This document shows, one piece after another, positions 50,530-52,892 of a stretch of 52,892 nt of DNA. The stretch lies in contig JAYULW010000007.1 in assembly GCA_043763155.1 (NCBI GenBank), positions 1 to 52,892 on the forward strand. The letters run 5' to 3'. Position 1 is the stretch's first letter. Every line of letters begins with the position of its first letter. The notes under the pieces were generated by a model. It made no database searches. It was not told the DNA's origin and saw only the letters and a program-made list of their open reading frames with translations. Source of the DNA: Alphaproteobacteria bacterium. Lineage in GTDB: Bacteria; Pseudomonadota; Alphaproteobacteria; Rickettsiales; SXRF01. The position numbers and the translations under genes are program-made.

Positions 50530-51783
50530 TCAAGAGCGGCGCAGCAGCCCGCCCAGCCCCACAACGCCCGCCCGCGTCACCGCGTCCAGATGGTTGTCGA
50601 AACGCTCGCGCGCCGCCGATGGCTCCTGCTGCGCATGATGCTTCACCAGCATCAAATGTGCTGCCTGCCCCGGTTCTGTAAGTTCCAGCTCAGCCATCAG
50701 TTGCTTTATCTGCAACGGCGCAAACGCTTTCTCGTCATGCACTTCAAGCGTGGCGGGCTTCAGCGCCCTGCGCTCTTCGGCCTGCTGCTTCAGCAACTTG
50801 AAAAATTCTTCGCGGCGCTTCTCCAGCTCATCAAGCCTGCCCAGCACCTGCCAGCGGTTGCGCACAAACCCCACAACCAGCGCAACACCCGCAACACCCG
50901 TCACCAGCAGCGGGTTGAAATCCCCGTGGGTCAGCGCCGTCACACCCAGCCCAAACCCCGCTGCGCGCAAAGCCTTATTCGCCACCGGCGCAGGCGCAGT
51001 CGGGTCACCGCCCAAGCCTTCCATCACCAGGTTCCACAAGCGGTGCTCTACCGTCTTATGCATCGCGTCGCGGTTGGCATTATAGCCAAGCGTATAAGGC
51101 AGGCCTGAAATCATGCCCTCCTTGCTCACGTCCACATGCATCACCACATCCTCGAACAAATAAGGCGTGCCGCGCGGGTGCGGCTTATTCAGCGACGCCT
51201 CACGCTCCATATTGCTGCCACTGACCCGTTCTTTCGCACGCAAAATACCATGCAAACCCATCAGGCTGCAAAACGCGGGCATGCCTTCAAGCGCATGCCA
51301 GCTTTTGCAATCCGTCTTTGCAATGAAATGGTCAATGGTCGCCTGCGCACCGTCCATGGCGGCTGCGCGTTCTTCTTTTGGAATTTCGCGGTCGAAGCGG
51401 TGCTTGCACACCACCGCCAGCTTTTCCCAGTGCAGCTTGTCAATATTGCTGCGAATCTGGAAAGCGTGCTGGCCTGCAAAATCCGTTTTTTCCACCACAA
51501 AACGCGGCCCCGCCCCGCGGAAAATTTTGGTCAGGCAGTCCACCGCGTCTTCAGCGTTTTCTTCGGTCTTGAGCCGCAGCACCAGCGTCTTTTCGCCTTC
51601 GCGGAAAGCACGCTGGCTGTGCCGCGAAGCGCCCGCCGCCTTAAAATCTTCCATGTAAATGCAGCCCGGCTCCAGCTCTTTATCCACCGCCCGCAATTTG
51701 CGCCATAGCGTCTCCCCCGGAAGATACTTTTCGTAATTATCATCCATCAGAATATAGAGGGCCTGCTCGGAGCTGATAGACAT
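50530..51783 (-). CDS. Hypothetical orphan protein with hydrophobic hairpin and coiled coil
   Basis: AAGFGLGVTALTHG-DFNP-LLVTGVAGVALVVGFV followed by RLDELEKRREEFFKLLKQQAEERR; start 51783 (alternative 51819). Confidence 0.78.
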   Translation of the reverse strand: MSISSEQALYILMDDNYEKYLPGETLWRKLRAVDKELEPGCIYMEDFKAAGASRHSQRAFREGEKTLVLRLKTEENAEDAVDCLTKIFRGAGPRFVVEKTDFAGQHAFQIRSNIDKLHWEKLAVVCKHRFDREIPKEERAAAMDGAQATIDHFIAKTDCKSWHALEGMPAFCSLMGLHGILRAKERVSGSNMEREASLNKPHPRGTPYLFEDVVMHVDVSKEGMISGLPYTLGYNANRDAMHKTVEHRLWNLVMEGLGGDPTAPAPVANKALRAAGFGLGVTALTHGDFNPLLVTGVAGVALVVGFVRNRWQVLGRLDELEKRREEFFKLLKQQAEERRALKPATLEVHDEKAFAPLQIKQLMAELELTEPGQAAHLMLVKHHAQQEPSAARERFDNHLDAVTRAGVVGLGGLLRRS

Positions 51784-51923
51784 GAAAACCTTACCGTGAA
51801 AAGGGGAAATACGCCGCAACGGTTAATATATTTTAACCATGGACGCAAGCACAACCTAGCCCACCGCTTTCGCACCCGCCAAAATCCCCATATTTCATGC
51901 GCCTAGCCCCCCCGCGAACCCCC

Positions 51924-51952
51924 TTGACCGCAAAGCCCCAATGGGCTAACAA
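51924..51952 (+). promoter_or_regulatory. sigma70 promoter of the original tRNA-Leu gene
   Basis: TTGACC-17bp-TAACAA in GCTAAC context, ~33 nt upstream of the tRNA 5' end. Confidence 0.6.
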
Positions 51953-51985
51953 GCTATCCGGGCCAAAAGGCCCTTTCCTCATAGT

Positions 51986-52026
51986 GCCCCTGTGGTGGAA
52001 TTGGTAGACGCGCCGGACTCAAAATC
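51986..52026 (+). pseudogene. tRNA-Leu(CAA) 5' half, copy 1 (attL-like)
   Basis: GCCCCTGTGGTGGAATTGGTAGACGCGCCGGACTCAAAATC: acceptor 5' strand, D-arm and anticodon loop CTCAAAA, then AT-rich DNA with no T-arm. Confidence 0.85.
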
Positions 52027-52132
52027 ATTCAAAAACTGATTTTGGCTTGGCAGAACAAGGAGTACAAAAATAACTGGAATACAGATACTTGAAACGAGTG
52101 TTTGGCTTCTGGTAAAAAGTTAGAAAATGGGT

Positions 52133-52154
52133 ATAGTCGGCACATAGTCGGCAC
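52133..52154. repeat. 11-bp tandem direct repeat, integrase arm-site-like
   Basis: ATAGTCGGCAC twice, just upstream of the second tRNA half. Confidence 0.75.
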
Positions 52155-52168
52155 AGCCTGATAAGTGC

Positions 52169-52209
52169 GCCCCTGTGGTGGAATTGGTAGACGCGCTGCA
52201 CTCAAAATC
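52169..52209 (+). pseudogene. tRNA-Leu(CAA) 5' half, copy 2
   Basis: GCCCCTGTGGTGGAATTGGTAGACGCGCTGCACTCAAAATC; 39/41 identical to copy 1; no 3' half follows. Confidence 0.85.
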
Positions 52210-52212
52210 GAG

Positions 52213-52313
52213 TTACACAAACAAAGACATCAAAAATTATTTAGCAATTTCAACGATATTATCGTTGACCCCAATAAAATTTAGCCTTACACATAGCTTA
52301 CACAAATTGCACA
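52213..52313. repeat. TT[AG]CACA repeats plus an 8-bp palindrome upstream of the integrase
   Basis: TTACACA at 52213, 52287, 52298; TTGCACA at 52307; CAACGATA-T-TATCGTTG at 52251-52267. Confidence 0.7.
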
Positions 52314-52343
52314 TTTTTGGGCGGCTTTGAGTAGGAGGCTAAA

Positions 52344-52892
52344 ATGGCAGAGCATCATGAATTGATGGGCGGAAAGCTCCACGTCTACCGCCGCGAGAAC
52401 AGCGGAAACTGGCAATGCTCAACTTATCTCAATGGCAAAAACTGGCGAGTGTCCACAAAGGAAGAAAGTCTCTCCCATGCAAAGGACTTCGCCGAAGACT
52501 GGTATCTCGGCCTCAAGGGAAAAAGCCGCGCCGGACAACTTAAAGTCGGCAAGACCTTTAAGCAAGCGTCCGAGGTATTCCTTAATGAATATGAGATAAT
52601 CACGGCGGGTGAACGCAACGCGAAATATGTGGCGGGTTTTGCTCTCATACTCAGGGTTCACCTCTTACCCTTTTTCAGCGATAAGATTCTTTCTGAAATT
52701 ACGCCGGGCATGGTGCAAGACTATCGCATTCACCGCGCCACATCGCGCAAGGATAAAAAAACAGGCGAACCAAAACGCCCATCCCGGAGTACACTGCACA
52801 AGGAAATCATTATATTGCGGCATGTATTAAAAGCAGGCCAGCGTCACGGCTGGATAGCCTACATACCGGATTTATCGCCACCGTATAAATCC
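52344..52892 (+). CDS. Tyrosine recombinase/phage integrase, N-terminal part (3'-truncated; not in ORF track)
   Basis: AGGAGG SD; open frame of 183 codons MAEHHELMGGKLHVYRRENSGNWQCSTYLNGKNWRVSTKEESL..., core-binding part HLLPFF..LSEITPGMVQDYR..STLHKEI..LR; catalytic domain lies beyond the window. Confidence 0.85.
   Translation, partial: MAEHHELMGGKLHVYRRENSGNWQCSTYLNGKNWRVSTKEESLSHAKDFAEDWYLGLKGKSRAGQLKVGKTFKQASEVFLNEYEIITAGERNAKYVAGFALILRVHLLPFFSDKILSEITPGMVQDYRIHRATSRKDKKTGEPKRPSRSTLHKEIIILRHVLKAGQRHGWIAYIPDLSPPYKS

What the first reader, a model, noticed from the sequence alone, without database searches (positions are those of the whole stretch)
51986..52209. Two tandem 5' halves of tRNA-Leu(CAA): integration that duplicates the 5' rather than the 3' part of the tRNA
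Seen: two 41-nt copies 183 bp apart, both stopping exactly at CTCAAAATC just past the anticodon loop and neither followed by a T-arm. Copy 1 has a proper promoter; copy 2 differs at 2 positions in the anticodon stem (CCGGA vs CTGCA). Established: most tRNA-targeting tyrosine integrases restore the gene by carrying the 3' part, leaving an intact tRNA at the integrase-proximal end. Inference: here the element carries the 5' part, so the restored tRNA should lie at the far right end of the island. Copy 2 would be the replacement half from an earlier element that was then hit by a second integration.
Basis: partly seen in the sequence, partly recalled or inferred. Interest (0 to 1): 0.75.

Follow-up and report, generated by a model that had tools for sequence, protein, structure and literature searches.

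The report
Nested islands that swap tRNA-Leu genes
The two half tRNA genes are the front halves of two leucine tRNA genes that were each cut in the anticodon loop by an incoming mobile element carrying its own complete replacement tRNA, a design already described for some phages, here stacked one inside the other.

Summary
Two 41-nt 5' halves of tRNA-Leu(CAA) lie at 51986-52026 and 52169-52209, both ending at the anticodon loop CTCAAAA, with no intact tRNA in the window.

Copy 1 is the host's own 5' half. Its 3' half lies on another contig (C11:22345-22396), next to a P4-type integrase and an excisionase-like gene that form the right end of element E1. The 142-bp "spacer" is E1's left arm. Copy 2 is the front of a complete tRNA-Leu(CAA) that E1 carries; in five other genomes that gene is intact.

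In this genome E1's tRNA was cut in turn by a second element, E2, whose integrase starts at 52344 and runs off the contig.

In relatives, E2-type integrases are followed 35-170 bp downstream by a complete tRNA-Leu. Stem pairing shows that tRNA is not a chimera of element 5' half and host 3' half (0 of 13 acceptor stems and 0 of 20 anticodon stems fit the chimera model). So the elements do not repair the gene with a 5' half. They split it and bring a whole substitute.

This is "tRNA-dependent lysogeny", known from mycobacteriophages, pelagiphages and Sinorhizobium prophage-related sequences. The case here is a new, nested member of a known kind.

The parts
51924..51985 (+). Upstream region of the host tRNA-Leu(CAA) gene, with a TTGACC -35-like hexamer at 51924-51929. 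It is the presumed host tRNA promoter, now reading into the orphan half.
   Evidence: TTGACC sits at the same place in same-genus G001 and G002. The consensus promoter scan found no full match, so the promoter is inferred, not shown.
51986..52026 (+). Orphan 5' half of the host's own tRNA-Leu(CAA): acceptor 5' strand, D arm, anticodon stem 5' strand CCGGA, loop CTCAAAA, plus TC. It forms attL of element E1.
   Evidence: 40/41 identical to the intact tRNA of same-genus G002. Its missing 3' half, identical to G002's except for one lost G, is at C11:22345-22396, followed by host flank conserved in G021.
52018..52024 (+). CTCAAAA anticodon loop, the common core and crossover region of the E1 integration.
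   Evidence: The same 7 nt are retained at the right junction, C11:22345-22351, and at both junctions in G006, G011, G017 and G033.
52027..52168 (+). Left arm of element E1 (the 142-bp 'spacer'). It contains a covarying hairpin at 52075-52111 and the invariant direct-repeat motif GTCGGCACATAGTCGGCAC at 52136-52154, a likely pair of arm-type integrase sites, 14 nt before the element's tRNA.
   Evidence: Homologous arms lie between an orphan 5' half and an intact tRNA in G006, G009 (twice), G011, G017 and G033, with mean column identity 61% and the 19-nt motif invariant. The hairpin shows compensatory changes. A near-identical motif sits in the right arm of provirus L140.
52169..52209 (+). 5' half of the complete tRNA-Leu(CAA) carried by E1 (anticodon stem CTGCA), truncated in its loop by E2. 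It forms attL of element E2.
   Evidence: 40/40 identical to positions 1-40 of the intact E1-borne tRNA of G006, G009, G011 and G033 (CTGCA/TGCAG). The stem 5' strand CTGCA does not pair with the following TCGAG, so the joint lies in the loop.
52201..52207 (+). CTCAAAA anticodon loop of the E1 tRNA, the common core of the E2 integration.
   Evidence: In G001 the same E2 left arm (TCGAG(C/T)TAC...) follows CTCAAAA of the host 5' half, and the element's right arm ends ...TTATTAGA before CTCAAAA of the orphan 3' half.
52208..52343 (+). Left (integrase-proximal) arm of E2. It holds TTACACA/TTGCACA repeats (52213, 52287, 52298, 52307), the palindrome CAACGATATTATCGTTG (52251-52267) overlapping a TTGACC, and an RBS GGAGG at 52334.
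   Evidence: The window's E2 segment (52169-52892: copy 2, this arm and the integrase start) is 91.5% identical in DNA to the G001 element. In G001 a 15-nt CTTACACATACACAT occurs in both the left and the right arm, as expected of arm-type sites of one element.
52344..52892 (+). First 183 codons of the E2 integrase, a divergent tyrosine recombinase. The ORF runs off the end of the contig.
   Evidence: It is 99.5% identical in protein to the first 183 aa of a 410-aa ORF in G001. The family conserves R237, K269, Y334-x-x-R337 and Y369. Profile comparison with the P4-type E1 integrase gives probability 82%, E 1e-5, with catalytic motifs aligned. Pfam hits are below the cut-off.

Best explanation
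The end of the window is the left edge of a composite island made of two nested integrative elements that both use the anticodon loop of tRNA-Leu(CAA) (CTCAAAA) as their attachment site.

Neither element rebuilds the gene it cuts. Each shares only about 7-9 bp (possibly up to 12) with the target and carries a complete tRNA-Leu(CAA) gene of its own that takes over decoding.

Element E1 is phage-like. It has a P4-type integrase and an excisionase-like gene at its right end, on contig C11. E1 entered the host gene first. This left the host 5' half (copy 1) with the host promoter on the left, and the host 3' half on the far right at C11:22345. E1's own tRNA lies 142 bp inside its left end.

Element E2 has a divergent R-Y-R-Y tyrosine integrase starting at 52344. 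E2 later integrated into the loop of E1's tRNA, which left that gene's 5' half as copy 2.

From relatives, E2 should carry its own complete tRNA-Leu(CAA) just after its integrase, beyond the contig end. That would be the cell's working gene.

Shown: the junctions, the split host gene, the homology of both arms to elements in other genomes, and the self-consistent replacement tRNAs in relatives.
Inferred: that the E2 copy in this genome still carries its tRNA, that the replacement tRNAs are expressed and needed, and that the repeated motifs are integrase arm sites.
For: - Split host gene: 5' half at C7:51986-52026 and 3' half at C11:22345-22396. The 3' half is preceded by an integrase (PF00589, Arm-DNA-bind_3, SAM_3) and an HTH_17 protein, and followed by host flank conserved in G021.
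- The same layout (host 5' half | ~140-nt arm | complete tRNA ... integrase | CTCAAAA + host 3' half) occurs in G006, G011, G017 and G033. Close homologues of the E1 integrase (77-90% identical) occur in G006, G009 and G017.
- Host halves covary with each other and differ from the element gene. In G017 and G033 the host has GCCCCGG/CCGGGGC, while the element gene has T6 paired with G67 or A67.
- The element tRNA is identical in G009, G011 and G033, which belong to different genera, and G033 to a different family.
- Copy 2 matches that tRNA 40/40.
- E2 in G001: host 5' half | left arm | integrase | complete tRNA, with the matching orphan 3' half (TCGAG, TAGGGGC) plus host flank on contig C20. 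A 15-nt motif is shared by both arms. There is no other integrase hit in the G001 stretches examined: C16:1-49300, downstream of the element tRNA, and C20:1-8106, upstream of the orphan 3' half.
- E2 family: 44 of 80 loci have a tRNA-Leu within 300 bp downstream of the integrase match, and 25 of those have an orphan 5' half 80-148 bp upstream. The orphan strands fail to pair with the intact gene (0/13 and 0/20), while the intact genes pair 13/13 and 18/20.
- L131 shows the whole E2-type arrangement on one contig.
- Literature: this design is described as tRNA-dependent lysogeny (PMC10865867), in pelagiphages (bioRxiv 10.1101/410191) and in Sinorhizobium meliloti (PMC11476347).
Against: - The contig ends at codon 183 of the E2 integrase. 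The rest of E2, its presumed tRNA, its right arm and the 3' half of E1's tRNA (TGCAG...) are absent from the assembly. The nested model for this genome therefore rests on relatives.
- C7 and C11 are not physically joined in the assembly.
- No intact tRNA-Leu(CAA) is present in the 93%-complete draft.
- Nothing here shows expression, excision or essentiality.
- The reads could not be examined.
- In some E2-family loci (L085, L089, L097, L098, L131) orphan and intact 5' halves are almost identical, so covariation cannot tell the models apart there.
Confidence: 0.8

Rival explanations
1. The integrase-bearing element carries only the 5' part of the tRNA. The working tRNA is a chimera of element 5' half and host 3' half at the element's far end. 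Copy 2 is such a replacement half from an earlier element of the same kind.
For: The layout 'orphan 5' half - integrase - intact tRNA' seen in G001 and 24 other loci looks at first sight like a 1.45-kb element carrying a 5' half. Phages that do complement with a partial 5' end are documented: pelagiphages HTVC011P, HTVC109P and HTVC120P (bioRxiv 10.1101/410191). In five loci orphan and intact 5' halves are nearly identical, which does not exclude this model there.
Against: Where they differ, the orphan (host) 5' strands do not pair with the 3' strand of the intact gene: 0/13 acceptor stems and 0/20 anticodon stems. In G001 the true partner of the orphan 5' half is an orphan 3' half on another contig, next to the host flank. 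L131 has 5' half, integrase, full tRNA, cargo and 3' half in a row. For E1 the replacement is a complete gene at the left end, and the far end holds an orphan 3' half.
Confidence: 0.07
2. A composite of independent events. A small 5'-half-carrying remnant (spacer plus 5' half) sits next to a classical element carrying a 3' half, so the 'complete' element tRNA is really a mosaic of two elements.
For: The order 5' half | short DNA | intact tRNA | DNA | 3' half can formally be split this way. A classical layout at the same loop site exists in G002: intact tRNA, integrase, and an orphan 3' half 9 kb downstream.
Against: The same arm, the same distance to the tRNA and the same 19-nt motif recur in seven copies across five other genomes. 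The whole tRNA is identical in three genomes of different genera. The motif of the left arm recurs in the right arm of an E1-type provirus. In G001 both arms share a 15-mer, and no second integrase hit lies in the stretches examined on either side of the gap between the two contigs. Recurrent identical deletions would be needed to produce this layout.
Confidence: 0.06
3. Assembly artefact or local tandem duplication of the tRNA 5' region, with no mobile element involved.
For: The genome is a 124-contig draft. The contig breaks 700 bp further on, and the reads could not be inspected.
Against: The two copies differ at two positions that match two different natural tRNA alleles. The spacer is homologous to element arms in five other assemblies. 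The sequence after copy 2 is homologous to the G001 element. GC content drops from about 0.56-0.62 to 0.46 over the last 900 bp of the contig, which begin just after copy 1.
Confidence: 0.03

Closest known systems
tRNA-dependent lysogeny of actinobacteriophages (Fionnbharth and other K4 and Cluster L phages; Guerrero-Bustamante and Hatfull 2024, PMC10865867). That paper also cites prophage Lj965 of Lactobacillus johnsonii.
   Same: A tyrosine integrase recombines at an attB inside a host tRNA gene. The common core is only about 10 bp, so no functional tRNA is rebuilt at either junction. [quoted passage not shown] Putative arm-type sites flank the core.
   Different: The elements here are in uncultured Alphaproteobacteria (E2 relatives occur in many phyla) and are not shown to be phages. 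The core is the anticodon loop itself, CTCAAAA. The replacement tRNA sits at a fixed place next to the junction (E1) or directly after the integrase (E2). The replacement gene has itself been used as a target by a second element, which produced a row of orphan 5' halves. Essentiality of the element tRNA was not tested here.
HTVC019P-type pelagiphages of SAR11 (Zhao et al., bioRxiv 10.1101/410191)
   Same: The hosts are alphaproteobacterial. Integration is in the middle of tRNA-Leu or tRNA-Cys genes. HTVC019P, HTVC025P, HTVC119P and HTVC200P split the gene and the phage's own tRNA is 'likely used instead'. HTVC011P and HTVC025P have the tRNA-Leu just downstream of the integrase, and the HTVC025P integrase is R-Y-R-Y, like the E2 family.
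   Different: There is no detectable sequence similarity between the E2 integrase and any record in the phage collection (no hit at E<=1e-10; only weak hits to streptococcal satellites at 1e-3). The targets here are tRNA-Leu(CAA). There is no T7-like phage gene content on C11. Nested double integration was not described there.
Classical tRNA-targeting islands and prophages with anticodon-loop crossover, where the island's own sequence restores the split gene (Islander abstract, PMC4383910; Williams 2002, cited from my own knowledge)
   Same: The class of target site (anticodon stem-loop) is the same. E1 has a P4-type integrase with an arm-binding domain plus an excisionase-like gene. An orphan 3' half marks the distal end.
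   Different: Classical elements carry the 3' part of the gene in attP and regenerate the tRNA at a junction. Here no junction regenerates a tRNA and an orphan 5' half is also left behind. G002 shows the classical layout at this very site, for contrast.
Prophage-related sequences of Sinorhizobium meliloti that inactivate a tRNA gene and bring a similar isoacceptor gene (PMC11476347)
   Same: The host is alphaproteobacterial. The host tRNA gene is inactivated by integration and substituted by an element-borne tRNA that resembles those of unrelated taxa.
   Different: The bacteria and the tRNAs differ. I did not compare sequences with those elements. No nested arrays were reported in the passages I read.

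Membership tests
tRNA-dependent lysogeny / split-and-substitute integration | Integration catalysed by an element-encoded tyrosine integrase | tested here: met
   The E1 integrase matches PF00589, Arm-DNA-bind_3 and SAM_3 above cut-off. The E2 integrase family conserves R, K, Y-x-x-R and Y, and aligns to the E1 integrase with hhalign probability 82%. Catalysis itself was not assayed.
tRNA-dependent lysogeny / split-and-substitute integration | attB lies inside a host tRNA gene | tested here: met
   The host tRNA-Leu(CAA) is split at the loop, into C7:51986-52026 and C11:22345-22396.
tRNA-dependent lysogeny / split-and-substitute integration | The common core is so short that no functional tRNA is rebuilt at attL or attR | tested here: met
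   Only CTCAAAA(TC) is shared. ARAGORN finds no tRNA at either junction. The same holds in G006, G011, G017, G033, G001 and L131.
tRNA-dependent lysogeny / split-and-substitute integration | [quoted passage not shown] | tested here: met
   E1: copy 2 is the 5' half of such a gene, and the gene is complete in five relatives. E2: a complete tRNA-Leu follows the integrase in G001 and in 44 of 80 family loci. It was not seen in this genome because the contig ends.
tRNA-dependent lysogeny / split-and-substitute integration | The element tRNA is required for survival of the integrant | not testable with these tools
   This needs genetics. The only hint is that no other tRNA-Leu(CAA) is in the draft, and the draft is incomplete.
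tRNA-dependent lysogeny / split-and-substitute integration | The element is a temperate phage | tested here: inconclusive
   E1-type integrases (74-77% identical) lie at the ends of IMG/VR proviruses with CheckV completeness of 56-58%. C11 carries RecT, ParB and AAA genes, but no structural phage genes were identified. E2 has no relatives in the phage record collection.
   0 of 13 differing acceptor strands and 0 of 20 differing anticodon-stem strands of the orphans pair fully with the intact gene. G001 and L131 have separate orphan 3' halves.
Classical tRNA-integrating island (restores the gene with an element-borne 3' part) | An intact tRNA at the junction, made of host 5' part and element 3' part, with only a 3' fragment duplicated | tested here: not met
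   The 5' halves are duplicated and no tRNA is formed at the junctions.

The most novel reading that the evidence does not exclude
The integrase-plus-tRNA-Leu module of the E2 family may be a self-sufficient 'tRNA-swapping' cassette that works across phyla. On this reading it needs only the invariant 7-nt anticodon loop as its landing site and brings a whole tRNA. That would let it enter hosts whose tRNA stems are incompatible with its own, which would fit its presence in Alphaproteobacteria, Planctomycetota, Verrucomicrobiota and Acidobacteriota. Each arrival would create a fresh landing site for the next. Rows of orphan 5' halves, driven by the old host promoter, would then record the order of arrivals. 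Decay of the orphan halves, such as the lost G in C11:22345-22396, would make the swap irreversible and the element's tRNA indispensable.
Probability: 0.3. Interest if true: 0.6.

Novelty: new member of a known kind. Interest (0 to 1): 0.4.

Why it matters
It corrects a tempting misreading. An orphan 5' half next to an integrase and an intact tRNA does not mean that the element repairs the gene with a 5' half. Stem covariation shows that a whole foreign tRNA has replaced the host gene.

It extends the split-and-substitute strategy, so far documented mainly for actinobacteriophages, pelagiphages and rhizobial prophage-related sequences. The extension covers two further integrase families, one of which has hundreds of relatives in several phyla.

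It shows that replacement tRNAs are themselves re-targeted. The result is compact arrays of tRNA 5' halves that island-mapping software based on 3' fragments would miss or mis-map.

It also implies horizontal replacement of a supposedly conservative core gene, tRNA-Leu(CAA).

Tried and rejected
- I searched the whole draft for the rest of the E2 integrase, for a TGCAG-type 3' half, and for an E2 right arm with TTACACA repeats. Nothing was found. The one TTACACA-like hit, at C42:613, is ordinary host DNA.
- An Rfam scan of 51800-52400 found nothing.
- The consensus promoter and terminator scan found nothing.
- I first read G001 as a 1.45-kb integrase-only element carrying a 5' half. I rejected that after finding the matching orphan 3' half on G001 C20 and after the pairing statistics.
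- I looked for an E1 left end and tRNA in the IMG/VR proviruses that carry E1-type integrases. None was found. The records are 56-58% complete.
- The E2 integrase was compared with phage records, PDB sequences and NCBIfam. No useful match was found.

Full report
**Observation**

The window is the whole of contig C7 of a 124-contig, 2.27-Mb draft genome.
- The repeat finder reports a 41-nt direct repeat at 51986-52026 and 52169-52209, 183 bp apart and 39/41 identical.
- The sequence is the 5' part of a tRNA-Leu(CAA): acceptor 5' strand, D arm, anticodon-stem 5' strand (CCGGA in copy 1, CTGCA in copy 2) and loop CTCAAAA at 52018-52024 and 52201-52207.
- After the loop plus TC, both copies leave the tRNA.
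- ARAGORN finds no tRNA in the window and no tRNA-Leu(CAA) anywhere in the draft.
- Rfam finds nothing in 51800-52400.
- An ORF from 52344 runs off the contig end and has weak integrase N-terminal domain hits.

**The host gene is split, and its other half is on contig C11**

- Searching the draft with intact tRNA-Leu(CAA) genes of relatives found a 3' half at C11:22345-22396. It starts with CTCAAAATCCGG.
- This 3' half is identical to the 3' half of the same-genus G002 tRNA, except that one G of the acceptor run is missing.
- Copy 1 matches the 5' half of that G002 gene 40/41.
- The 80 bp after the C11 fragment are conserved downstream of the intact tRNA of G021, so this is the original host flank.
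- Directly upstream on C11 lie a 419-aa integrase (PF00589, Arm-DNA-bind_3, SAM_3) and a 155-aa HTH_17 protein.
- Further upstream are RecT, ParB and AAA-family genes.

So the host gene was cut in its loop. A mobile element, which I call E1, lies between C7:52027 and C11:22344.

**E1 carries a complete tRNA at its left end**

- In G006, G011, G017 and G033, and twice in G009, an orphan 5' half is followed by a homologous arm of about 140 nt and then an intact tRNA-Leu(CAA).
- The seven arms align at 61% mean column identity. They share an invariant GTCGGCACATAGTCGGCAC 14-17 nt before the tRNA and a hairpin with compensatory changes.
- Close homologues of the E1 integrase (77-90% identical) occur in G006, G009 and G017.
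- In G006 and G017 the integrase homologue is followed by CTCAAAA plus an orphan 3' half. G011 and G033 have the orphan 3' half 6.2 kb and 1.75 kb from the 5' half on the same contig.
- The orphan halves fit each other and not the gene between them. In G017 and G033 the host halves are GCCCCGG/CCGGGGC, whereas the inner gene has T6 with G67 or A67.
- The inner gene is identical in G009, G011 and G033, which belong to different genera, and G033 to a different family.
- Copy 2 of the window equals positions 1-40 of that gene exactly.

So the '142-bp spacer' is E1's left arm, and copy 2 is the front of E1's own complete replacement tRNA.

**A second element, E2, cut E1's tRNA**

- After copy 2's loop comes TCGAGTTACAC..., which does not pair with CTGCA, so the joint lies in the loop.
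- The region 52169-52892 is 91.5% identical in DNA to G001, and the integrase start is 99.5% identical in protein.
- In G001 the same arm follows an orphan host 5' half and precedes a 410-aa integrase. An intact tRNA-Leu(CAA) lies 45 bp after that integrase.
Three points argue against it.
  - The G001 orphan has A7 and stem CTCGA. These do not pair with the intact gene's C66 and TCCAG.
  - A search of G001 found an orphan 3' half on contig C20:8107-8161 with TCGAG and TAGGGGC, the exact partners of the orphan 5' half. It is followed by the conserved host flank.
  - The arm before that 3' half shares a 15-nt CTTACACATACACAT with the left arm, and no other integrase hit lies in the G001 stretches examined: C16:1-49300, downstream of the element tRNA, and C20:1-8106, upstream of the orphan 3' half.

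So the tRNA after the E2 integrase is a third, element-borne gene.

**Family-wide test**

The E2 integrase has about 550 relatives in the genome collection. They occur in Alphaproteobacteria, Planctomycetota, Verrucomicrobiota, Acidobacteriota and other groups.
- Among the best 80 loci, 44 have a tRNA-Leu within 300 bp downstream of the integrase match, on the same strand. Most are CAA, and some are TAG or TAA.
- Of those 44 loci, 25 also have an orphan 5' half 80-148 bp upstream of the integrase.
- Where the orphan differs from the intact gene in the acceptor 5' strand (13 loci), the intact gene pairs 7/7 in all 13, and the orphan would pair 7/7 in none.
- Where the anticodon-stem 5' strand differs (20 loci), the intact gene pairs 5/5 in 18, and the orphan in none.

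A chimera of element 5' half and host 3' half predicts the opposite. L131, from a Brevundimonas MAG, shows the complete arrangement on one 6.1-kb contig: orphan 5' half, arm, integrase, full tRNA, 0.93 kb, an arm with the same TAGCGCA repeats, and an orphan 3' half.

A related pseudo-integrase in G001 sits between an orphan 5' half and an intact tRNA-Tyr.

The E2 integrase is a divergent tyrosine recombinase.
- Its Pfam scores are below the cut-off.
- The family conserves R237, K269, Y334-x-x-R337 and Y369.
- Its profile aligns with the E1 integrase over 301 columns, with the catalytic motifs in register (probability 82%, E 1e-5).

**Mechanism**

Both elements recombine within the 7-nt anticodon loop. 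They share too little with the target to rebuild a tRNA, and they supply a whole tRNA-Leu(CAA).
- E1 places its tRNA 142 bp inside the left junction, in the same direction as the host promoter.
- E2 places its tRNA right after the integrase.
- Because each replacement tRNA recreates the attB, later elements can land in it. G009 has three 5' halves in a row, and the window has two.

Several points are inference only:
- The host promoter may drive the orphan half and E1's tRNA as one transcript.
- The invariant direct repeats may be arm-type sites. A near-copy of the E1 motif lies in the right arm of provirus L140.
- Carrying a whole tRNA may free the element from stem compatibility and so widen its host range.

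**Comparison with what is known**

- The design is 'tRNA-dependent lysogeny', described for Fionnbharth and other actinobacteriophages. It has a core of about 10 bp, no tRNA reconstruction, and a phage tRNA of the same isotype that is required for lysogeny (PMC10865867). That paper also points to prophage Lj965.
- Pelagiphages of SAR11 show both variants. HTVC019P, HTVC025P, HTVC119P and HTVC200P split the gene and rely on their own tRNA. HTVC011P, HTVC109P and HTVC120P complement with a partial 5' end. HTVC011P and HTVC025P also have the tRNA-Leu just downstream of the integrase, and HTVC025P has an R-Y-R-Y integrase (bioRxiv 10.1101/410191).
- Sinorhizobium prophage-related sequences are reported to replace inactivated tRNA genes by foreign ones (PMC11476347).
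- The E2 integrase has no detectable relative in the phage record collection, in PDB sequences or in NCBIfam.
- E1-type integrases lie in IMG/VR proviruses.

The kind is therefore known. The integrase families, the fixed position of the tRNA, the breadth of the E2 family and the nesting are the new details. Earlier notes of this scan report similar tRNA-Leu cases in other genomes. I treat those as leads only.

**Limits**

- The window stops at codon 183 of the E2 integrase.
- The rest of E2, its presumed tRNA and the junction back into E1 are not in the assembly.
- C7 and C11 are not joined in the assembly.
- Expression, excision and essentiality are untested.

**Verdict**

This is a new, nested member of a known kind, of moderate interest.

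Noticed in passing
window 52075-52111, and the aligned arms in L018, L019, L020, L021 and L022: The E1 left arm contains a ~37-nt hairpin (-13.2 kcal/mol in the window) that keeps pairing through compensatory changes across seven element copies. It could insulate or process read-through from the host tRNA promoter, or be a protein site. Its function is unknown.
   Followed up: partly
G000 C11:22397-22474 (L029 2397-2474); also G001 C20 (L035 from about 8162), G006 C7 and G033 (L020): The host flank just 3' of tRNA-Leu(CAA) carries a conserved piece that looks like a tRNA T-arm plus acceptor 3' strand (GGTTCGAnTCCG...). It is shared across genera and may be the scar of another tRNA-targeting element or a small structured RNA.
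   Followed up: no
G000 C11:22345-22396 and G002 C24:114015-114065 (L036): The orphan host 3' halves in both same-genus genomes lack one G of the acceptor G-run (CGGGGC instead of CGGGGGC). Precise excision would rebuild a defective tRNA, unless this is a homopolymer error in both assemblies.
   Followed up: no
G001 C5:98181-99497 (L054): An E2-family integrase pseudogene with two in-frame stops lies between an orphan 5' half (39 nt, 95% identical) and an intact tRNA-Tyr(GTA). The same architecture is used on another tRNA.
   Followed up: partly
G002 C24:114015-123224 (L024, L036): At the same anticodon-loop site, the same-genus genome G002 shows the classical layout: intact tRNA, a different integrase, and an orphan 3' half 9 kb downstream. 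Classical and split-and-substitute elements therefore compete for one site within a genus.
   Followed up: partly
G033 (L020 3549-4628, minus strand): The 1.75-kb degenerate E1-type element of G033 carries only the replacement tRNA and one ORF with a SIR2-like GAGxS motif. I recognised the motif by eye and did not test it. The ORF may be defence cargo.
   Followed up: no
window 52251-52270: The 17-nt perfect palindrome CAACGATATTATCGTTG overlaps a TTGACC upstream of the E2 integrase. It is conserved with one change in G001 and may be an operator for integrase expression.
   Followed up: no
window 50530-51819 (minus strand): The 429-aa ORF next to the tRNA locus has no Pfam match.
   Followed up: no
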